Virus record (IMG/VR): IMGVR_UViG_2529292726_000023
Span: 1 to 15,263 of that record
Direction: 5' to 3' (one strand)
From: a virus
Lineage: Duplodnaviria > Heunggongvirae > Uroviricota > Caudoviricetes
DNA: 15,263 nucleotides
Below the pieces are notes generated by a model, which did no database searches, was not told the origin of the DNA, and saw nothing but the letters and a program-made list of their open reading frames with translations. This document shows positions 1,554 through 10,490 of the stretch, in pieces (position 1 is the stretch's first letter; every line of letters begins with the position of its first letter). The position numbers were made by a program, and so were the translations under genes.

Positions 1554-2246
1554 TTAATTGTGTCGCTTAAGGGTTTGTGACTGGCTGATTAAGACCTTTC
1601 CAAAGACCATAAACCGGTGTTCATTTTCGCTGGTAATTCCCCATTCACGGTAAATCTGGTTATCAGAAATCACCAGTAGTTTGTCAGGTATCATTTGCAG
1701 TCGTTTGACATAAATTTTATCATCAAAACCAAATACATAGATACCATCTCCATCAAACTGATTGATACTGACATCAACGAAGATGAGATCTCCTGGCTCA
1801 ATGGTTGGACACATACTGTCCCCACGAACGTTGATAACTTTAATGTGATTGGCTGGTCGTCCGCCAAACATCGATACAGCATTATCAGTTCTGTATTCAA
1901 TGGCATGAATCACATCAATGACATCACCGCCCTGGATAAGGCCATTTCCCGCACTGGCACTGACATCCAGCATTTCAATACGGAATACATCCTTCACCTG
2001 CGCAACATCCTCACTAATACTGTTTTTACATACAGTATTACTTTTGAAGTCTGAGGTAAAGAGATCAGCAATATCAACACCTAAGCTCCTGGCAATATTA
2101 CTCAGGGCTTGTTCAGTGAATTGTTTCTGCTTACCTGTTTCCAGGCGCGAGATATTCGCCGCATCCACTCCTATTGCTTCAGCGAGATCGGCGATTTTCA
2201 TGTTCTTCGCCTGGCGAAGTTGTCTGACTCGATTTCCTATGTTCAT
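1554..2246 (-). CDS. CI-like prophage repressor, 230 aa: N-terminal XRE-type HTH plus C-terminal S24 (LexA-like) self-cleaving peptidase domain
   Basis: MNIGNRVRQLRQAKNMKIADLAEAIGVDAANISRLETGK HTH; C-terminal GDSMCPTIEPGDLIFVD with downstream KRLQ consistent with the Ser/Lys dyad; divergent from a Cro-like gene. Confidence 0.9.
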   Translation of the reverse strand: MNIGNRVRQLRQAKNMKIADLAEAIGVDAANISRLETGKQKQFTEQALSNIARSLGVDIADLFTSDFKSNTVCKNSISEDVAQVKDVFRIEMLDVSASAGNGLIQGGDVIDVIHAIEYRTDNAVSMFGGRPANHIKVINVRGDSMCPTIEPGDLIFVDVSINQFDGDGIYVFGFDDKIYVKRLQMIPDKLLVISDNQIYREWGITSENEHRFMVFGKVLISQSQTLKRHN

Positions 2247-2343: not shown

Positions 2344-2604
2344 ATGCAATCACCATTACGAAATGTGCGTAAGGCGCACGGGCTTACTTTGCAGCATGTT
2401 GCTGCGGGCGTTCAGGTTAATCCAGCAACGCTGAGTCGTATTGAGAGACTGGAACAAATTCCATCTATCGATCTTGCAGAGCGTCTGGCCAATTTTTTTA
2501 AGGGAGAAATCAGCGAAATGCAGATTCTCTATCCTGCACGCTTTCAATCTAGTCAAAACCGGAATGAGTTAAAACCACAGGAACAGGAGGTAAGCCGTGG
2601 GTAA
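2344..2604 (+). CDS. Cro-like HTH transcriptional regulator, 86 aa
   Basis: MQSPLRNVRKAHGLTLQHVAAGVQVNPATLSRIERLEQIPSIDLAERLANFF is a helix-turn-helix fold; position divergent from the repressor; GGAGG RBS. Confidence 0.8.
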   Translation: MQSPLRNVRKAHGLTLQHVAAGVQVNPATLSRIERLEQIPSIDLAERLANFFKGEISEMQILYPARFQSSQNRNELKPQEQEVSRG

Positions 2605-3148
2605 GCATCACTGGAAAGTGGAAAAACAACCTGAGTGGTACGTGAAAGCTATCAGAAAAACTATCGCGGCATTGCCAGGTGGTTACGCTGAAGCTGCTGA
2701 CTGGCTGGATGTAACAGAGAACGCATTATTTAACCGCCTTCGTGCCGATGGCGATCAGTTTTTTCCGTTGGGATGGGCAATGGTTTTACAGCGTGCGGCT
2801 GGTACTCACCACATTGCGGATGCTGTCGCACAGTCTGCTGGTGGGGTGTTTGTATCACTTCCTGAAATTGAGGAAGTAGAGAACGCCGATATAAACCAGC
2901 GCCTGCTGGAAGTCATCGAACAGATCGGGAGTTACTCAAAGCAGATTCGTTCGGCAATCGAAGACGGGGTAGTGGAGCCACATGAGCAGACAGCAATTAA
3001 TGATGAGTTGTATCTGTCGATTTCGAAGCTCCAGGAACATGCGGCACTGGTCTACAAAATTTTCTGCGTTCCAGAAAAGAGTGACGCCCGCGAGTGTGCA
3101 GCTCCGGGCGTCGTGGCGTTTTGTGTCTGTGGAGAAACTAACGCATGA
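2597..3148 (+). CDS. Hypothetical early regulatory protein in the CII position, 183 aa; family uncertain (possibly CII/CP76-like)
   Basis: GTG start with AGGAGG RBS 6 nt upstream, overlapping the cro stop; stop overlaps the next start (ATGA). Family assignment is from position and memory only. Confidence 0.5.
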   Translation: MGKHHWKVEKQPEWYVKAIRKTIAALPGGYAEAADWLDVTENALFNRLRADGDQFFPLGWAMVLQRAAGTHHIADAVAQSAGGVFVSLPEIEEVENADINQRLLEVIEQIGSYSKQIRSAIEDGVVEPHEQTAINDELYLSISKLQEHAALVYKIFCVPEKSDARECAAPGVVAFCVCGETNA

Positions 3149-3750
3149 ACAGTTTAACGGCAAATAACCGTTGGTCGCAACAGCTGGTGGTCCGCGTGGC
3201 TGAACACCTGTTGTTACGGCATGAATGCAGATTACCAAATCACCTGGCTGTAAGTAACCACAGAGAACTTTACCTGACTGTGGGGGGCGAGTTGTGCAGG
3301 AACTTAACCGCTGGTTTCGTGACGGAAGAGGACTTTATGTTCATGTTATTCGTTGGGAGCCAGAAACACAGCGCGTTATCTATCTTCGCAAAGACTACCC
3401 GCATGAGTGCTTTAGTCCTTTGTGGAAATTCAGGCGTGATTTTGTTGAGTGTGAAGGACCACCAGCACATTGATTCTGCCATTCCGGGACGTTACACTGT
3501 TCAGGCACCTTATAAAGCGGGTGCCGGGCGTGGAAACCCGGAATTCACCAAAGCGCACAACCGCGCTCTTGCGGTTTTTTTGTGTCATGAGCAGCATTAC
3601 GCCCAAATTATGGTGGGGCGTGCAGGGCCAACTTCGGTTGGGCCGGGTTCTTTGGTGACCGGTATTTCCACCCCTGTACGTCTCACCACCAATAAGGTCG
3701 TGGAAAGCCTTGGTGGTGAGTTATTTAAAATCACCAAAGAGGCTGCCATC
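3145..3750 (+). other. Ambiguous coding region upstream of rha, in frame with it (no stop between 3145 and 4296); possible N-terminal extension, fusion or decayed gene
   Basis: ATG at 3145 is translationally coupled (ATGA) to the upstream gene, but the Rha domain has its own RBS and start at 3751. An alternative-frame ORF at 3294-3473 has a GGGGGG RBS 6 nt before its GTG. Confidence 0.35.
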
Positions 3751-4296
3751 ATGGCTACGATCCCAACCCTCACTCAACCTGAAATTGCCATCGTTGATGG
3801 TCAGGCTGTTACTTCATCCCTGGCTGTTGCCAACTTCTTCTCCAAACGTCATGACGATGTACTGAAAAAGATCCGCACGCTTGAATGCTCCGCATCATTC
3901 ACTGCCCGCAATTTTTCGGTGAGTGATTACACCGATTGCACAGGCCGCAAACTACCTTGCTATCAAATAACCCGCGACGGCTTTGCGTTTCTTGCTATGG
4001 GTTTCACGGGTAAACGTGCTGCCCAGTTCAAAGAGGCATACATCAATGCCTTTAACCAGATGGAGAAACAGCTTTCAAGGCCCGCTGTACCGAGCGACGT
4101 TGCACATAACGCCAGCGTTCTCTGTTCCTACATTTCATCAATTCATCAGGTCTGGCTGCAGCAGCTTTATCCTATGTTGGCAAAAGCCGAATCTCCGCTG
4201 GCTGTTAGCTTATATGACTATATTAATGATGCTTCGGCGCTGGCCTGCCTCATAAATTTGTCGCTGAACCCTTCAGAGGTAAGGGGGCGCAAATGA
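3751..4296 (+). CDS. Rha family phage regulatory protein, 181 aa
   Basis: MATIPTLTQPEIAIVDGQAVTSSLAVANFFSKRHDDVLKKIRTL matches the Rha domain N-terminal signature; AAAGAGG RBS 8 nt upstream of ATG 3751. May instead be the C-terminal part of a 383-aa ORF starting at 3145. Confidence 0.8.
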   Translation: MATIPTLTQPEIAIVDGQAVTSSLAVANFFSKRHDDVLKKIRTLECSASFTARNFSVSDYTDCTGRKLPCYQITRDGFAFLAMGFTGKRAAQFKEAYINAFNQMEKQLSRPAVPSDVAHNASVLCSYISSIHQVWLQQLYPMLAKAESPLAVSLYDYINDASALACLINLSLNPSEVRGRK

Positions 4297-4517
4297 TCCG
4301 GAATATTTTCAAACGTTTTACCAATCAGACTTTCCGTTGTCCTCGTCCGGGTCAGTGGTACACCACGCCTGCAGGGCATGTTCTACGTGTTAGCCTGGTT
4401 GACCGTGAATGTCAGAAGGTGGTTTGTGAACCGCTGGGCCGTAATTACCGCGTCAGTATGCCGCTTATAGCCTTTCGCTCCAGAAAAAACATGAAGCATC
4501 TCGGAGGTGCAGCATGA
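4293..4517 (+). CDS. Hypothetical small protein, 74 aa
   Basis: ATGA overlap with the upstream stop and with the downstream start (translational coupling on both sides); GGTAAGGGGG RBS. No family recognised. Confidence 0.5.
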   Translation: MIRNIFKRFTNQTFRCPRPGQWYTTPAGHVLRVSLVDRECQKVVCEPLGRNYRVSMPLIAFRSRKNMKHLGGAA

Positions 4518-5332
4518 GTATGGAGCTGATGGTTAAAGCGATGAAAATTCGAGTGGGTAATCCATTGCGAAAACTGGTTCTGATCAAGCTGGCTGATAAT
4601 GCCAGCGATCAGGGTGAGTGCTGGCCCAGCTACCAGCATATTGCTGACCAGTGCGAGATTAGCAAACGTTCTGTGATGAATCATATTGCGGCCCTTTGTG
4701 AGTCCGGGCTGGTAAAAAAAGTCACCCGGAAAGGTGAAAAAGGTAACTCAAGTAATATCTATCTCCTTCATCTGGATGGTGCAGGAGATTCACTAGGGGG
4801 TAGTGCAAATAATTCACTATCTGGTGCAGCAAATTCACCAGGTAGTGCAGGAGTTGCACCAGGGGGTAGTGCAGGAGATTCACCCAGAACCAGTCACTCT
4901 TTTGAACCAGTCAAAGAACCAGTCAATGAACCAATAGCTGTTGGTGCATCAGTTGATGAGTCCGTGCGAGTTCGTTCAAACCGACCGGAATATTCTCCGG
5001 AGTTTGAGCAGGCATGGCTGGCATATCCCAAACGTGCTGGTGGCAATTCAAAATCTGCAGCCTTCAAAGCCTGGAAAGCCCGTTTGAATGAGGGGGTAAA
5101 CCCCGAAACCATGCTGGAAGGTGTGAAACGCTATGCGGGCTGGGTATCTGCAATGGGTAACAGCGGCACACAATTTGTGAAACAGGCTGTCACGTTCTTT
5201 GGTCCGGATCGTCATTTCGAAGAATCCTGGGAAGTTCCTGCGGTATCTGCAGCCAGACGTGAGGACCCGTACTTCAAATCCAGTTACGACAACGTGGACT
5301 ACAGCCAGATCCCGGCAGGATTCAGGGGGTGA
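4514..5332 (+). CDS. O-like replication initiator candidate, 272 aa: N-terminal winged-HTH DNA-binding domain, Gly/Ser/Ala-rich linker, conserved C-terminal domain
   Basis: N-terminus LRKLVLIKLADNASDQGECWPSYQHIADQCEISKRSVMNHIAALCESGLVKK resembles phage replication-protein HTH domains; the linker coincides with iteron-like DNA repeats, as in lambda O/ori. Confidence 0.6.
   Translation: MSMELMVKAMKIRVGNPLRKLVLIKLADNASDQGECWPSYQHIADQCEISKRSVMNHIAALCESGLVKKVTRKGEKGNSSNIYLLHLDGAGDSLGGSANNSLSGAANSPGSAGVAPGGSAGDSPRTSHSFEPVKEPVNEPIAVGASVDESVRVRSNRPEYSPEFEQAWLAYPKRAGGNSKSAAFKAWKARLNEGVNPETMLEGVKRYAGWVSAMGNSGTQFVKQAVTFFGPDRHFEESWEVPAVSAARREDPYFKSSYDNVDYSQIPAGFRG
4778..4935. repeat. Iteron-like direct repeats inside the replication gene (candidate origin of replication)
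   Basis: Repeated units GGTAGTGCA (x3), GTGCAGGAGATTCAC (x2), ATTCAC (x4), then AACCAGTCA (x3) within about 160 bp. Confidence 0.5.
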
Positions 5333-7204: not shown

Positions 7205-8002
7205 ATGAATAATCTGATGGTCATTGATGGTATTGAAGTTCGTCGTGATGCTTATGGTCGTTACAGCCTGAACGATCTGCACAGGGCTGCCGGTTCTCTG
7301 GATAAGCATAAGCCTGCATTCTGGCTCCGCAATGAGCAAACTGAACGTTTAATAAGCGAGTTGCAGATTTGCAACTCGGTCAATATAGAGCCAGTTAACG
7401 TTATTCGTGGCGGAAATAACCAGGGGACGTATGTCTGCAAAGAACTGGTGTATGCCTATGCAATGTGGATAAGCCCGTCATTCCATCTGAAGGTGATCCG
7501 TACTTTCGACATGGTAACCAGCGCACCGGAAAAATTATCCGGACAGGCTGCTGACAAGATGCAGGCTGGTGTGATTCTGCTGGACTTTATGCGCCGGGAA
7601 TTAAACCTGTCTAACTCTTCAGTGCTTGGGGCCTGTCAGAAACTCCAGGAGGCTGTTGGCTTACCGAATCTGGCACCGCGCTATGCCATTGATGCTCCTG
7701 CTGACGCGCCTGATGGCTCAAGCCGCCCCACGCTGTCACTGAGTGCACTGCTGAAGCAGTATGGTATCCGCCTGACAGCTAATCAGGCATATCACCAGAT
7801 GGCGAAGCTGGGGATCGTTGAACAACGTGAACGATACAGCCGCACTGCGATTAACAACATCAAAAAATTCTGGTCGCTGACGGCGAAAGGCTGCATGTTC
7901 GGCAAGAACATCACCAGTCCCGCAAATCCGCGCGAGACGCAGCCGCATTTCTTCGAATCCCGGTTCCCTGAGCTGTTAAAGCTGCTCGATACCGTTCATT
8001 GA
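7205..8002 (+). CDS. KilA-N domain protein, 265 aa
   Basis: N-terminus MNNLMVIDGIEVRRDAYGRYSLNDLHRAAG...KPAFWLRNEQTERLISEL...GGNNQGTYVCKELVYAYAMWISPSFHLKVIRTFD is a KilA-N fold; GAGGAGAAA RBS before ATG 7205. Confidence 0.8.
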   Translation: MNNLMVIDGIEVRRDAYGRYSLNDLHRAAGSLDKHKPAFWLRNEQTERLISELQICNSVNIEPVNVIRGGNNQGTYVCKELVYAYAMWISPSFHLKVIRTFDMVTSAPEKLSGQAADKMQAGVILLDFMRRELNLSNSSVLGACQKLQEAVGLPNLAPRYAIDAPADAPDGSSRPTLSLSALLKQYGIRLTANQAYHQMAKLGIVEQRERYSRTAINNIKKFWSLTAKGCMFGKNITSPANPRETQPHFFESRFPELLKLLDTVH

Positions 8003-8003
8003 G

Positions 8004-8999
8004 GTGACCGTGAGAGCGCTACTGACCCCTGAAATTGCCCCGCGTATGGGGATCGTATTGTTCAGGCCAGGTTCAGAGCTGATGCCCCTGTTTATGCAGG
8101 GGCGTGTCCTGCTGGAGCCTGAGCCGGAACGTTATTCATCTTTCGCCAGTGGTGCCGTTCCGGCTGCATCACAACCGCTGGCGGATGATCCTGCCGTTTG
8201 GGCCGTGTTCCGCAATGAGGCAGTGATTCGTCGTGCTGGTGGAGTGGAATGTCTTGAACGCTGGTTACTTCGTGAAAAAGGTTGCCAGTGGCCTCATTCC
8301 GACTGGCACAGCGAGAACATGACCACAATGCGACACACGCCGGGCGCAATCCGTCTGTGCTGGCACTGCGATAACCAGCTGCGCGATCAGTTCACGGAAC
8401 GGCTGGAATCAATGGCAACGGATAACTGTACCCGCTGGGTGTTGTCTGTTGTGCGTCGGGATCTCGGTTTTGATGACAGTCACGTTGTGACAATGCCGGA
8501 ACTGTGCTGGTGGCTGATTCGTAATGACCTGGCGGATGCCTTACCGGAAAGTGCAGCCCGTAAGGCACTGAGATTACCGAAGCCTGTTGTGCCGTCTGTC
8601 ACCCGGGAAAGTGACCTTGTGCCTTCGGTTCCTGCCACCAGCATCATCCAGGATAAAGCGAAAAAGGTGCTGGCGCTGAAAGTGGATCCGGAGTCGCCGG
8701 AGTCTTTTATGTTACGCCCAAAACGTCGCCGCTGGGTTAATGAAAAGTACACGCGCTGGGTTAAGACACAGCCGTGTGCATGTTGTGGAAAGCCTGCTGA
8801 TGATCCCCACCACCTGATAGGTCACGGTCAGGGAGGAATGGGAACAAAAGCGCATGACCTTTTTGTGTTGCCTTTGTGCAGAAAGCATCACGACGAGCTG
8901 CATGCGGATACCGTGGCATTTGAAGAGAAGTATGGCTCCCAGCTGGAGCTGATATTTCGTTTTATCGATCGTGCGCTGGCAATTGGCGTGCTGGCCTGA
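8004..8999 (+). CDS. DUF968 protein (YdfU-like), about 330 aa, with C-terminal HNH-like Cys/His motif
   Basis: C-terminal [43 protein letters not shown]; sits just upstream of Q as DUF968 genes do in Qin-like prophages. True start may be GTG 8010 (GAGG RBS). Confidence 0.75.
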
Positions 9000-10180: not shown

Positions 10181-10256
10181 GGCCCTTTAGCTCAGTGGTG
10201 AGAGCGAGCGACTCATAATCGCCAGGTCGCTGGTTCAAATCCAGCAAGGGCCACCA
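10181..10256 (+). tRNA. tRNA with CAU anticodon, most like tRNA-Ile2 (lysidine type; a plain scan would call it Met)
   Basis: 76-nt cloverleaf GGCCCTTTAGCTCAGTGGTGAGAGCG...CTCATAA...GGTTCAAATCCAGCAAGGGCCACCA; anticodon CAT at 10214-10216; encoded CCA; resembles enterobacterial ileX/ileZ. Confidence 0.85.
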
Positions 10257-10257
10257 A

Positions 10258-10334
10258 CTGCCACTAGCTCATCAGGAAAGAGCGTCAACCCTTTAAGTTG
10301 AGAGTGCGAGGTTCGAGTCCCCGGTGGCGGTCCA
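10258..10334 (+). tRNA. tRNA-like gene with noncanonical anticodon loop CCTTTAA (position 33 is C); anticodon reads UUU (Lys) by standard numbering; identity uncertain, possibly a pseudo-tRNA
   Basis: Acceptor CTGCCAC/GTGGCGG (one G-U pair), D-stem GCTC/GAGC, anticodon stem TCAAC/GTTGA, T-loop TTCGAGT with one A-C mismatch in the T-stem, encoded CCA. Confidence 0.5.
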
Positions 10335-10336
10335 GT

Positions 10337-10412
<76 letters not shown>

Positions 10413-10415
10413 TGT

Positions 10416-10490
<75 letters not shown>

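What the first reader, a model, noticed from the sequence alone, without database searches (positions are those of the whole stretch)
3145..3750. Ambiguous 600-bp coding stretch fused in frame to the Rha gene, with a plausible overlapping alternative-frame small gene
The frame starting at ATG 3145 (translationally coupled to the upstream gene) runs without a stop into the Rha gene, yet Rha has its own RBS and start at 3751 and a normal-length product. Inside, a different frame encodes 59 aa (GTG 3294 to TGA 3473; VQELNRWFRDGRGLYVHVIRWEPETQRVIYLRKDYPHECFSPLWKFRRDFVECEGPPAH) with a GGGGGG RBS 6 nt upstream. This may be a decayed or frameshifted gene, a genuine N-terminally extended Rha, or overlapping genes.
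Basis: seen in the sequence. Interest (0 to 1): 0.5.

Follow-up and report, generated by a model that had tools for sequence, protein, structure and literature searches.

The report
RNA immunity switch inside Rha leader
The puzzling 600-base stretch is a phage control cassette: one real small gene plus two small-RNA genes that gate a Rha-type regulator gene, all threaded by a reading frame that evolution keeps open without conserving its protein. It is a new copy of a system known from phages P4, P1 and Gifsy-1, and genome annotation misreads it as one long protein.

Summary
ORF 3145-4296 (383 aa) runs into Rha without a stop, and the 59-aa alternative-frame ORF 3294-3473 exists.

The stretch is not a decayed gene. 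It holds four things:
- A genuine DUF4222 gene at 3294-3473 (Pfam E 9.5e-14; variation falls on its third codon positions).
- An internal promoter (3470-3498) driving an IsrK / c4-a1b1 leader RNA (3505-3581) that ends in an intrinsic terminator.
- A C4/CI-type antisense RNA (3606-3693).
- The C4 target sites a2 (3700-3706) and b2 (3731-3740). Site b2 covers the Shine-Dalgarno sequence of rha (ATG 3751).

Across 61 distinct homologous modules (45 specificity combinations), the leader sites, the C4 loops and the target sites co-vary.

The long frame is also not chance. It is stop-free in 138 of 139 variants, while the other two frames carry stops at 13-22 distinct positions. Yet it shows no amino-acid constraint. 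This matches the phage P4 eta/kil arrangement, where a read-in ORF starting upstream of the internal promoter is thought to override RNA immunity simply by being translated.

Pfam's "Ash domain" is the translation of this RNA cassette. Verdict: a new member of a known kind, missed by RefSeq annotation.

The parts
2597..3148 (+). Upstream gene ymfL (CII/CP76-like). Its TGA overlaps ATG 3145 as ATGA.
   Evidence: ORF list; Pfam Phage_CP76 E 8.2e-15; RefSeq name ymfL.
3145..4296 (+). Long 'frame A' ORF (383 aa at most), a read-in ORF of the P4 eta type. It runs through the DUF4222 gene in another frame, then the internal promoter, IsrK, C4 and the target sites, and continues in frame into rha. 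The true start is unresolved. Candidates are ATG 3145 (coupled to ymfL), ATG 3337/3343 (preceded by GAAGAGGA) and GTG 3451 (homologous to the ATG used in other contexts).
   Evidence: The Pfam Phage_ASH match at aa 117-213 equals nt 3493-3783. P4 eta shows the same pattern.
3294..3473 (+). DUF4222 small protein gene (59 aa, GTG start, G-run 3280-3285 upstream), in the +2 frame relative to frame A.
   Evidence: Pfam DUF4222 E 9.5e-14; phrog_1343 E 1e-36; variable sites 3/3/16 by codon position; window vs K-12 differences 19/15/38; annotated in some RefSeq records.
3470..3498 (+). Putative internal sigma-70 promoter (PisrK / P4 PLE / P1 P51b equivalent): -35 TTGATT 3470-3475, 17-nt spacer, -10 TACACT 3493-3498, giving a start near 3505.
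   Evidence: Read from sequence. It matches 8 of 12 consensus positions, so the scan did not list it. It aligns column for column with the annotated -35 and -10 of P1 promoter P1c4.
3505..3581 (+). IsrK / c4-a1b1-type leader RNA. Site a1 GTGGAAA (3530-3536) sits in a hairpin loop; site b1 TCACCAAAG is at 3545-3553. The intrinsic terminator stem is 3559-3576, followed by a T-run.
   Evidence: Rfam isrK 67 bits against gathering score 50; terminator scan; a1:a' and b1:b' covariation.
3610..3612 (+). AUG at the 5' edge of C4, equivalent to the first start codon of Gifsy-1 orf45. Here it is in frame with rha, 141 nt upstream of ATG 3751.
3606..3693 (+). C4 / P4 CI-type antisense RNA; by homology to P1 the mature form is about 3612-3689. 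Site b' TCTTTGGTGA (3649-3658) lies in the 12-nt loop; site a' TTTCCAC is at 3665-3671.
   Evidence: Rfam C4 83.6 bits against gathering score 45; fold -44.5 kcal/mol, z -4.8; stems 100% paired with compensatory changes.
3700..3706 (+). Target site a2 (GTGGAAA), complementary to a'.
   Evidence: Formal counts are partly blurred by an indel in the alignment.
3731..3742 (+). Target site b2 (TCACCAAAGA, 3731-3740), overlapping the rha Shine-Dalgarno AAAGAGG (3736-3742).
   Evidence: In b':b2, 9 of 10 pairs show changes on both sides.
3751..4296 (+). rha short form (181 aa), a Rha-family regulator. It sits where P4 kil, P1 icd and Gifsy-1 anrP sit. Its stop overlaps the next ORF's ATG at 4293.
   Evidence: Pfam Phage_pRha E 1e-30; TIGR02681; the ATG is invariant in 61 of 61 modules.

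Best explanation
Window 3145-3750 is the control region of a Rha-family regulator gene in an E. coli lambdoid (e14-like) prophage. It is built like the immunity regions of phages P4 and P1.

A real small gene (DUF4222, 3294-3473) is followed by a constitutive-type internal promoter at 3470-3498. That promoter makes a short terminated leader RNA (IsrK, 3505-3581) carrying sites a1 and b1. By read-through it also makes a C4/CI-type antisense RNA (3606-3693), whose exposed sites a' and b' pair with a2 (3700-3706) and b2 (3731-3740).

Because b2 overlaps the Shine-Dalgarno sequence of rha (ATG 3751), C4 is expected to block rha translation. This step is inferred from P1 c4-icd and P4 CI-kil. IsrK carries the same two sites as the target, so it can bind C4's a' and b'. 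In Gifsy-1, supplying IsrK in trans turns on translation of the downstream gene. How IsrK acts here is inferred.

The open frame from 3145 (or a later start) into rha is a read-in ORF of the P4 eta type. It begins upstream of the internal promoter, so only transcripts arriving from the early operon (cro-ymfL side) can translate it. Selection keeps it free of stops but does not conserve its amino acids. This indicates that the act of translating through the RNA cassette is what matters. By analogy with P4 eta, translation would prevent termination and bypass the RNA block, yielding a long Ash-Rha form alongside the 181-aa form.

Shown here: the element identities, the covariation, the stop avoidance and the lack of codon periodicity. 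Inferred: promoter activity, RNA processing, repression, and the anti-termination role of translation.
For: Element identities:
- Rfam isrK scores 67 bits and C4 83.6 bits, both above their gathering scores.
- A terminator-like hairpin lies at 3559-3576.
- Pfam assigns DUF4222, Phage_ASH and Phage_pRha.

Covariation:
- 139 distinct modules fall into 45 a'/b' combinations, with matching a1, b1, a2 and b2 at fixed offsets.
- On 61 distinct modules, C4 P1 is 100% paired and hairpin 1 has compensatory changes in 5 of 5 pairs.
- Changes on both sides occur in 9 of 10 b':b2 pairs, 6 of 7 a1:a' pairs and 8 of 9 b1:b' pairs.
- No shuffle out of 500 reached the observed values, and slid controls were 37-47% paired against 89-94% observed.

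Coding tests:
- DUF4222-frame variable sites are 3/3/16 by codon position.
- The IsrK, C4 and target segments show no periodicity.

Stop avoidance:
- Frame 0 is stop-free in 138 of 139 modules between the C4 AUG and the gene AUG, and in 136 of 139 across the 138 nt upstream.
- The other frames have stops at 17, 13, 14 and 22 distinct positions.
- No b' loop out of 31 has a stop in that phase, against 19 and 3 in the other two phases.
- Column resampling predicts 40-45% stop-free; the observed counts are 66/66 and 45/46.

Read-in starts:
- In most contexts where frame 0 is closed upstream, the first in-frame start (usually an ATG) lies between -153 and -192, upstream of the promoter.
- Sixteen modules have ATG exactly at -156 as ATGA, 15 of them with an SD-like match; examples show AAGGAGG or GGGAGGTG and coupling to the preceding gene.

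P4 comparison:
- P4 ORF 8168-8812 (eta, ending in kil) contains the C4 and isrK hits and matches Phage_ASH over that region.
- The P4 mechanism is summarised in PMC10111431.

Other known systems:
- The window's -35 and -10 align with P1's annotated P1c4 promoter, and rha's ATG aligns with the P4 kil and P1 icd starts.
- In Gifsy-1, 'orf45'/STnc1160 is a C4 hit, and b2 covers the anrP Shine-Dalgarno sequence.
- Experiments on that locus are in PMC4825925.
Against: - Nothing here shows expression. The promoter matches only 8 of 12 consensus positions and was not listed by the scan.
- The IsrK fold alone is not exceptional (z -1.0).
- The start of the read-in ORF in this window is unresolved. Frame A is closed just upstream of, or early in, DUF4222 in some relatives (stops at -29, -38, -95). 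GTG 3451 lacks a convincing SD.
- P1 and Gifsy-1 work without a read-in ORF. P1 has an in-frame TAA in its b' loop, and Gifsy-1 has a stop 3 nt upstream of the AUG. So the ORF is not essential to the RNA switch.
- The 139 variants are related by descent, so counts overstate independence.
- The direction of IsrK's effect is uncertain. In Gifsy-1 an a1 mutation in cis raised basal expression rather than lowering it.
- Rha's molecular target is unknown. It is not similar to Gifsy-1 AnrP.
Confidence: 0.72

Rival explanations
1. The 383-aa ORF is one ordinary protein, as RefSeq annotates it (WP_001401085.1). Its N-terminal 200 residues, including an 'Ash domain', fold and function as protein, and the RNA-family hits are incidental.
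For: PGAP calls the 383-aa CDS. Pfam Phage_ASH matches aa 117-213. PHROG families 821, 995, 3960 and 6928 include this extension. The frame is kept open.
Against: There is no third-position excess anywhere from 3145 to 3750 in this frame. Within 3294-3473 the variation falls on its second codon position (16 of 22 sites), so DUF4222 is the frame under selection there. The same nucleotides show strong RNA-RNA covariation among three separate sites. The hypervariable parts change the peptide freely. In P4 the Ash match coincides with the CI RNA cassette.
Confidence: 0.08
2. The region between DUF4222 and rha is a purely non-coding leader (IsrK plus C4). The frame that runs into rha is open by chance or by base composition.
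For: P1 and Gifsy-1 have stops in the corresponding frame. GC-rich structured RNA has few stop triplets. There is no amino-acid conservation.
Against: Avoidance is specific to one frame: 1 of 139 and 3 of 139 sequences have stops, against 85-138 of 139 in the other frames, which have stops at 13-22 distinct positions. In the 112 modules whose downstream start is in frame (Rha-type fusions), the AUG-to-AUG spacing is 141 or 144 nt. Starts upstream of the internal promoter recur in unrelated contexts, some with strong SD. In other subfamilies the frame stays open across a diverged gene in another frame (0 of 11 and 0 of 5 with stops). Resampling expects 40-45% stop-free against about 100% observed.
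Confidence: 0.12
3. The stretch is a decayed or frameshifted gene, a pseudogenised fusion.
For: The ORF overlaps another gene and has ambiguous starts. The window resembles the defective prophage e14 in its ymfL region.
Against: The arrangement is intact and 98-100% identical in inducible-type phage genomes and many E. coli chromosomes. Every element scores above curated thresholds. Only 2 of 78 close relatives carry a frame disruption.
Confidence: 0.02

Closest known systems
Phage P4 immunity region: PLE promoter, seqA leader, CI RNA, seqC, nested genes kil and eta
   Same: The order of parts is the same. A long ORF starts upstream of an internal promoter. It spans a leader with target-like sites (Rfam isrK/c4-a1b1 hits), a C4-clan RNA and the downstream target, and it is in frame with a short gene whose ATG follows GAGGCTGCCATC. 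Pfam Phage_ASH covers exactly this part in both. The long ORF overlaps the end of the preceding gene.
   Different: The short product here is a 181-aa Rha-family regulator, not the 65-aa Kil/Icd-like killer. The host element is a lambdoid prophage early operon, not a P4 satellite. The read-in ORF additionally overlaps a whole gene (DUF4222) in another frame. P4 has about 78 extra nt between the AUUAUGG motif and its CI hit. Anti-termination by translation is shown for P4 (PMC10111431) but not here.
Phage P1/P7 immI: c4 antisense RNA, icd, ant
   Same: The promoter, a1, b1, terminator-like hairpin, C4, a2 and b2-over-SD are homologous and colinear. P1 carries annotations for P1c4, a1, b1, c4, a2 and b2, and the loci align. 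Specificity is set by the a and b sequences, as between P1 and P7.
   Different: P1's frame has a TAA in the b' loop, so it has no read-in ORF. In P1 the first regulated gene is icd, followed by coupled ant (KilAC domain). Here rha directly occupies the icd position.
Salmonella Gifsy-1 isrK-orf45-anrP (Hershko-Shalev et al. 2016, PMC4825925)
   Same: The Rfam families and their order are the same. orf45 begins at the AUG at the C4 5' end, and b2 covers the SD of the downstream regulator. The processed ~80-nt STnc1160 equals the C4-type RNA. IsrK pairing with 'orf45' at G28/G31 corresponds to a1:a'.
   Different: In Gifsy-1, orf45 is a separate 45-codon ORF ending in ATGA, with a stop 3 nt upstream of its AUG. 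Here the frame is fused to rha and open far upstream. AnrP (187 aa) is unrelated to this Rha. The Gifsy-1 locus sits next to Q, not in the early operon.
E. coli K-12 e14 ymfL-ymfM
   Same: The upstream gene ymfL is the same. An ORF starts at its stop (ATGA) and begins MNSLT. A DUF4222 ORF is nested in the same relative frame.
   Different: e14 lacks the IsrK-C4-rha cassette. There frame A ends as 112-aa 'YmfM' just before the next gene. The 150-180 nt between ymfL and DUF4222 are not homologous.

Membership tests
C4 antisense RNA (Rfam RF01695; P1/P7 C4, P4 CI) | Covariance-model match above the curated gathering score | tested here: met
   83.6 bits against 45, full length 1-87, window 3606-3693.
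C4 antisense RNA (Rfam RF01695; P1/P7 C4, P4 CI) | Long closing helix plus two hairpins, supported by compensatory changes | tested here: met
   P1 helix 17 pairs, 100% paired, 4 pairs with changes on both sides. Hairpin 1 has changes on both sides in 5 of 5 pairs. Fold z -4.8.
C4 antisense RNA (Rfam RF01695; P1/P7 C4, P4 CI) | Two exposed segments (a', b') complementary to two downstream sites, with b2 over the RBS of the first downstream gene | tested here: met
   a' 3665-3671 pairs with a2 3700-3706. b' 3649-3658 pairs with b2 3731-3740, which overlaps AAAGAGG before ATG 3751. These co-vary in 45 combinations.
C4 antisense RNA (Rfam RF01695; P1/P7 C4, P4 CI) | Processed from a longer transcript to about 77 nt, and represses the downstream gene | not testable with these tools
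   Needs Northern blots or RNA-seq and reporter fusions. Known for P1 and P4, and for Gifsy-1 STnc1160.
IsrK (RF01394) / c4-a1b1 (RF03163) leader RNA | Covariance-model match above the gathering score | tested here: met
   isrK scores 67 bits against 50 at 3505-3581. c4-a1b1 itself was not listed for the window, but it overlaps the isrK hits in Kluyvera, P4 and Gifsy-1.
IsrK (RF01394) / c4-a1b1 (RF03163) leader RNA | Own promoter and Rho-independent terminator | tested here: inconclusive
   The terminator-like hairpin plus T-run was found. The promoter matches only 8 of 12 consensus positions but is positionally homologous to P1 P1c4. Activity was not measured.
IsrK (RF01394) / c4-a1b1 (RF03163) leader RNA | Carries copies (a1, b1) of the C4 target sites that pair with C4 | tested here: met
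   a1:a' has changes on both sides in 6 of 7 pairs and b1:b' in 8 of 9, with 97-98% of cells paired.
P4 eta/kil-type nested read-in ORF | A long ORF starts upstream of the internal promoter, spans leader, RNA and target, and is in frame with the short gene | tested here: met
   ORF 3145-4296 contains the promoter at 3470-3498 and ATG 3751 in frame. P4 has the same layout.
P4 eta/kil-type nested read-in ORF | The ORF is maintained by selection (nonsense codons are deleterious) | tested here: met
   Frame-specific stop avoidance. This is comparative evidence only.
P4 eta/kil-type nested read-in ORF | Translation of the long ORF prevents Rho-dependent termination, making upstream transcripts insensitive to immunity | not testable with these tools
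   Reported for P4. Here it needs nonsense mutants with and without Rho inhibition.
P4 eta/kil-type nested read-in ORF | The short product is a Kil/Icd-like small protein | tested here: not met
   The short product is a 181-aa Rha-family protein. Icd-like genes occupy this place in other subfamilies.
DUF4222 (Pfam PF13973) | Profile match above cut-off, and coding-type substitution pattern | tested here: met
   51.1 bits against 27. Variable sites by codon position are 3/3/16 and 19/15/38. Homologues start with ATG or TTG at the same codon.
Rha family regulator (PF09669 / TIGR02681) | Profile match above cut-off in the 181-aa product | tested here: met
   Pfam 106 bits; TIGR02681 104.6 bits against 45.95.
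Single 383-aa Rha protein as annotated in RefSeq | The N-terminal 200 residues are under amino-acid-level purifying selection | tested here: not met
   No third-position excess was found. Variation falls on the second position where DUF4222 overlaps.

The most novel reading that the evidence does not exclude
The stop-free but sequence-unconstrained frame is a general 'translational read-in override' of RNA immunity in enterobacterial prophages. It is maintained even where it must thread through real genes in another frame: DUF4222 upstream, and Icd-like or MANRK-type genes downstream. As a corollary, K-12 'YmfM' (SfiC, the e14 SOS-inducible division inhibitor) would be only the vestige of such an ORF, and the conserved nested DUF4222 protein would be the actual effector in the published ymfM clones.
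Probability: 0.25. Interest if true: 0.6.

Novelty: new member of a known kind. Interest (0 to 1): 0.42.

Why it matters
Annotation. A match to this stretch is present in over half of complete E. coli genomes. It is annotated as a 383-aa or 297-aa 'Rha family protein' with no RNA genes, and the real DUF4222 gene is often dropped. The Pfam/InterPro 'Ash domain', described in the literature as a domain of unknown function, is explained as the translation of an IsrK/C4 RNA cassette.

Biology. The locus ties three separately described systems into one family: P1 c4, P4 CI/eta and Gifsy-1 IsrK. That family has at least 45 interchangeable specificities and occurs in tandem arrays, which implies strong diversifying selection on phage-phage immunity and anti-repression. 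It also suggests a re-reading of the Gifsy-1 data, in which C4:a2/b2 is the repressive pairing.

Testability. The stop-free frame gives a directly testable case of selection for translation itself rather than for a protein.

Tried and rejected
- I first read the long frame as chance read-through of RNA genes. I rejected this after the three-frame stop counts, the conserved upstream starts and the P4 comparison.
- I assumed window Rha was an orthologue of Gifsy-1 AnrP. I rejected this because BLASTP finds no significant similarity, and AnrP is 187 aa in strain LT2.
Only Kluyvera L196 and Brenneria L228 were real.
- Protein-seeded locus searches returned near-identical copies. Diversity came from a more specific DNA pattern in viral contigs.
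- A literature search including 'immI' was swamped by unrelated words.
- Segment 3145-3293 shows no RNA structure signal (z -0.04), no protein family and no codon periodicity. I could assign it nothing beyond being part of the open frame.
- The antisense ORF 3270-3482 was rejected because variation falls on its first codon position (derived) and Pfam supports the + strand.
- c4-a1b1 was not listed for the window at the gathering threshold.
- The tool-based counts for a':a2 (57% paired) and for the terminator (60% paired) are depressed by indel placement and by two stem types in alignment A1, not by real mismatches.
Full report
**1. The observation**

ORF 3145-4296 (+, 383 aa) and the GTG ORF 3294-3473 (+, 59 aa) are both present as described.
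- ATG 3145 overlaps the stop of the upstream gene 2597-3148 as ATGA.
- ATG 3751 is preceded by AAAGAGG.

The window is an E. coli lambdoid prophage. The divergent gene 1554-2246 (-) is a CI-like S24 repressor. Gene 2344-2604 is Cro-like, and 2597-3148 is ymfL (CII/CP76-like).

The 701-nt region 3100-3800 is 100% identical in many E. coli chromosomes. A match occurs in 2,940 of 5,426 complete genomes, and 475 cover at least 80% of it.

RefSeq annotates either one 383-aa 'Rha family' CDS, or DUF4222 plus a 297-aa Rha CDS. It never annotates an RNA gene here.

**2. What lies inside the stretch**

Rfam finds two families above their gathering scores inside the 'coding stretch':
- isrK at 3505-3581 (67 bits against 50).
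- C4 antisense RNA at 3606-3693 (83.6 bits against 45).

A terminator-like hairpin plus T-run ends the isrK hit at 3559-3576.

Pfam assigns the 59-aa ORF to DUF4222 (E 9.5e-14). It assigns residues 223-308 of the long ORF to Rha. It assigns residues 117-213 (nt 3493-3783, exactly the isrK + C4 + target region) to the 'Ash protein family'.

Reading the sequence shows the pairing sites:
- The C4 loop TCTTTGGTGA (b', 3649-3658) is complementary to TCACCAAAGA (b2, 3731-3740). Site b2 overlaps the rha Shine-Dalgarno sequence.
- The same loop is complementary to TCACCAAAG (b1, 3545-3553) in IsrK.
- TTTCCAC (a', 3665-3671) is complementary to GTGGAAA at 3700-3706 (a2) and at 3530-3536 (a1).

This is the a1/b1-c4-a2/b2 geometry annotated in phage P1 immI.

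A TTGATT-17 nt-TACACT promoter-like element (3470-3498) sits 6 nt before the isrK start. It aligns with the annotated -35 and -10 of P1 promoter P1c4. Likewise rha's ATG aligns with the P1 icd and P4 kil starts.

**3. Comparative evidence for the RNA switch**

I collected homologous modules from IMG/VR loci. There are 139 distinct modules, with 61 distinct C4 sequences. They comprise 31 b' types and 16 a' types in 45 combinations.

Nearly every one has perfectly matching a1 (about -67), b1 (about -51), a2 (about +91) and b2 (about +122).

Formal counts on a 61-sequence alignment (A1) are as follows:

| Helix | Result |
|---|---|
| C4 closing helix (P1) | 100% paired |
| C4 hairpin 1 | changes on both sides in 5 of 5 pairs |
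| b':b2 | changes on both sides in 9 of 10 pairs |
| a1:a' | changes on both sides in 6 of 7 pairs, 98% paired |
| b1:b' | changes on both sides in 8 of 9 pairs, 97% paired |

No shuffle out of 500 reached the observed values. Partner-slid controls fell to 37-47% paired.

The window's C4 folds at -44.5 kcal/mol, z -4.8.

The experimentally studied Gifsy-1 locus has the same Rfam hits in the same order.
- Its 'orf45' starts at the AUG at the C4 5' edge.
- Its b2 covers the anrP Shine-Dalgarno sequence.
- Its processed ~80-nt STnc1160 RNA (PMC4825925) is therefore the C4-type RNA.
- The published IsrK G28/G31 pairings with C162/C159 correspond to a1:a'.
- Notably, the published compensatory double mutants did not restore repression: 224 and 327 against 4 Miller units. 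That fits a':a2 being the repressive pairing, as in P1. This last point is my inference.

**4. Which frames are coding**

I compared 78 distinct close relatives (83-100% identity).

| Segment | Variable sites by codon position | Frame used |
|---|---|---|
| DUF4222 gene | 3/3/16 | DUF4222 frame |
| 3145-3293 | 10/13/6 | frame A |
| IsrK | 14/15/10 | frame A |
| C4 | 18/15/18 | frame A |
| target region | 13/14/13 | frame A |

In the DUF4222 gene the variable sites fall on position 2 of the long frame. The four frame-A segments show no periodicity.

Entropy profiles over the 139 modules agree, while the downstream gene does show a third-position excess.

The window and K-12 DUF4222 copies differ at 19/15/38 sites by codon position. 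Amino-acid identity is 37/59, against 18/58 in the long frame.

So DUF4222 is a real gene, and the long frame's peptide is not conserved.

**5. The long frame is nevertheless kept open**

This was unexpected.

| Region | Frame 0 (frame of ATG 3610 and of rha) | Frame 1 | Frame 2 |
|---|---|---|---|
| C4 5' AUG (window 3610) to downstream start | stops in 1 of 139 | 90 of 139, at 17 distinct positions | 124 of 139, at 13 distinct positions |
| 138 nt upstream, through IsrK and its promoter | stops in 3 of 139 | 85 of 139, at 14 distinct positions | 138 of 139, at 22 distinct positions |

Further points:
- None of the 31 b' loops has a stop in the frame-0 phase, against 19 and 3 in the other two phases.
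- Where the downstream start is in frame (112 of the 139 modules, the Rha-type fusions), the spacing is 141 or 144 nt.
- Resampling alignment columns predicts only 40-45% stop-free sequences; the observed counts are 66/66 and 45/46.

In contexts other than DUF4222 the frame begins upstream of the internal promoter:
- Where frame 0 is closed upstream, the first in-frame start is usually an ATG between -153 and -192.
- Sixteen modules have ATG exactly at -156 as ATGA, 15 of them with an SD-like match.
- Examples show a strong SD (AAGGAGG, GGGAGGTG) and an ATGA overlap with the preceding gene's stop.
- The homologous codon in the window is GTG 3451.

In subfamilies where the SD-preceded downstream gene lies in another frame, frame 0 still has no stop across it:
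- These genes are Icd-like or 'MANRKQ...' type, and both show a third-position excess.
- Frame 0 has stops in 0 of 11 and 0 of 5 sequences. The other shifted frame has stops in all of them.

**6. The known paradigm**

This is the arrangement of phage P4. PMC10111431 summarises it as follows:
- A constitutive promoter lies inside eta.
- Its transcript is terminated through CI/seqA RNA interactions and is processed to CI RNA.
- Kil is the truncated form of Eta.
- Full-length Eta is translated only from an upstream late promoter and is coupled to the upstream gene.
- Eta translation prevents termination.

I checked this on the P4 genome:
- ORF 8168-8812 (-) is 214 aa and ends in the 65-aa Kil.
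- It contains the Rfam C4 hit (CI RNA), the isrK hit and a c4-a1b1 hit just below threshold.
- It matches Pfam Phage_ASH over exactly that part (aa 37-161).

Hence the 'Ash domain' is the translation of the RNA cassette. The window's long frame is an eta-type read-in ORF, and the 181-aa Rha is the kil-position short form.

P1 has a TAA in its b' loop. Gifsy-1 has a stop 3 nt before the AUG. Both lack the read-in ORF, so it is an optional layer.

**7. Mechanism: shown and inferred**

Shown by sequence and comparison:
- the identities of DUF4222, IsrK, C4 and Rha;
- the three-way specificity covariation;
- b2 lying over the rha RBS;
- frame-specific stop avoidance without amino-acid constraint;
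- starts upstream of the internal promoter.

Inferred from P1, P4 and Gifsy-1:
- PisrK is active in lysogens.
- Most transcripts stop at the IsrK terminator.
- Read-through is processed to C4.
- C4 blocks rha translation, and probably transcription through Rho.
- IsrK carries decoy copies of the targets and modulates C4.
- Transcripts entering from the early operon are translated in frame A through the cassette and so escape the block.

The start of frame A in this window is unresolved:
- ATG 3145 is conserved in 78 of 78 close relatives and shares its ATGA/MNSLT start with e14 ymfM.
- However, the frame is closed just upstream of, or early in, DUF4222 in some relatives.
- ATG 3337/3343 (preceded by GAAGAGGA) and GTG 3451 are the alternatives.

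**8. Verdict**

- The stretch is a known kind of system in a new setting: a lambdoid early operon, with Rha as cargo, and DUF4222 overlapped.
- It is widespread in E. coli and is mis-annotated.
- Interest is moderate. The surprising part is that the read-in frame is preserved across 45 specificities, and even across genes in other frames.
- A side issue worth testing is whether K-12 'YmfM' or the nested DUF4222 is the e14 division inhibitor.

Noticed in passing
L004 (K-12 MG1655 e14) 4323-4680; window 3145-3473: K-12 'cell division inhibitor YmfM' (112 aa) starts at the ymfL stop, like window frame A. It fully contains a conserved DUF4222 ORF in another frame (TTG 4502, SD AAGGAG, Pfam E 8.6e-19). 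The DUF4222 frame is the conserved one: 37/59 amino-acid identity against 18/58. The ymfM paper cloned the whole ORF in pBAD24 and reports no frame-specific mutants. The effector could therefore be DUF4222.
   Followed up: partly
L306 (3 copies), L296, L297, L332, L344, L349, L031, L035, L384: There are tandem arrays of two or three complete modules with a period of about 656 nt. Each module has an ATGA-coupled start, internal promoter, IsrK, C4, a2/b2 and a short Rha-like gene. Each carries a different a/b specificity.
   Followed up: partly
window 3493-3783; L405 (P4) 8330-8704: Pfam PF10554 'Ash protein family' (107 positions) matches the translation of the IsrK/seqA + C4/CI + target cassette in both the window and P4 eta. 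The apparent domain conservation is RNA-level conservation. Papers still list Ash as a domain of unknown function (PMC8951638).
   Followed up: yes
L358, L379, L294, L392, L289 (IMG/VR loci), +110 to +1250 from C4: In other subfamilies the SD-preceded gene after b2 (Icd-like, or 'MANRKQ...' of 75-88 aa) is in frame 2. Frame 0 nevertheless stays open across it, and in L289 and L392 it runs on in frame through sequence that looks like the next protein-coding gene.
   Followed up: partly
L406 (Gifsy-1) 34075-34330 (-): The published 'orf45'/STnc1160 is a C4-family RNA (69 bits). Published compensatory double mutants (G28A/C162U and G31A/C159U) restored RNA conformation but not repression. This fits C4 a':a2 being the repressive pairing rather than the IsrK:orf45 helix.
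   Followed up: partly
window 3710-3720 and 3681-3691: TTGGTGGTGAG, between a2 and b2, is complementary to the C4 3' strand CTCACCACCAA. It mimics the C4 5' strand and is largely conserved in the 61-module alignment. It may form an alternative helix affecting C4 folding or processing.
   Followed up: no
window 4293-4517: A 74-aa ORF is coupled to the rha stop (ATGA) and matches phrog_1153 (E 1.5e-45). That PHROG is also weakly hit by DUF4222, and direct BLASTP of the two proteins gives E 0.039. It may be a distant DUF4222-like paralogue.
   Followed up: partly
window 10181-10487: A cluster of four tRNA genes lies on the + strand in the late region of the prophage.
   Followed up: no
L001 and L002 (RefSeq records): PGAP annotation of identical DNA is inconsistent. 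One record has a 383-aa Rha CDS without DUF4222. Another has DUF4222 plus a 297-aa Rha CDS starting at window 3403. Neither has an RNA feature.
   Followed up: yes
L196 (Kluyvera georgiana) 7600-7730: An EFASI RNA (Rfam RF02957, 114 bits) lies about 2 kb downstream of an isrK-C4 module.
   Followed up: no
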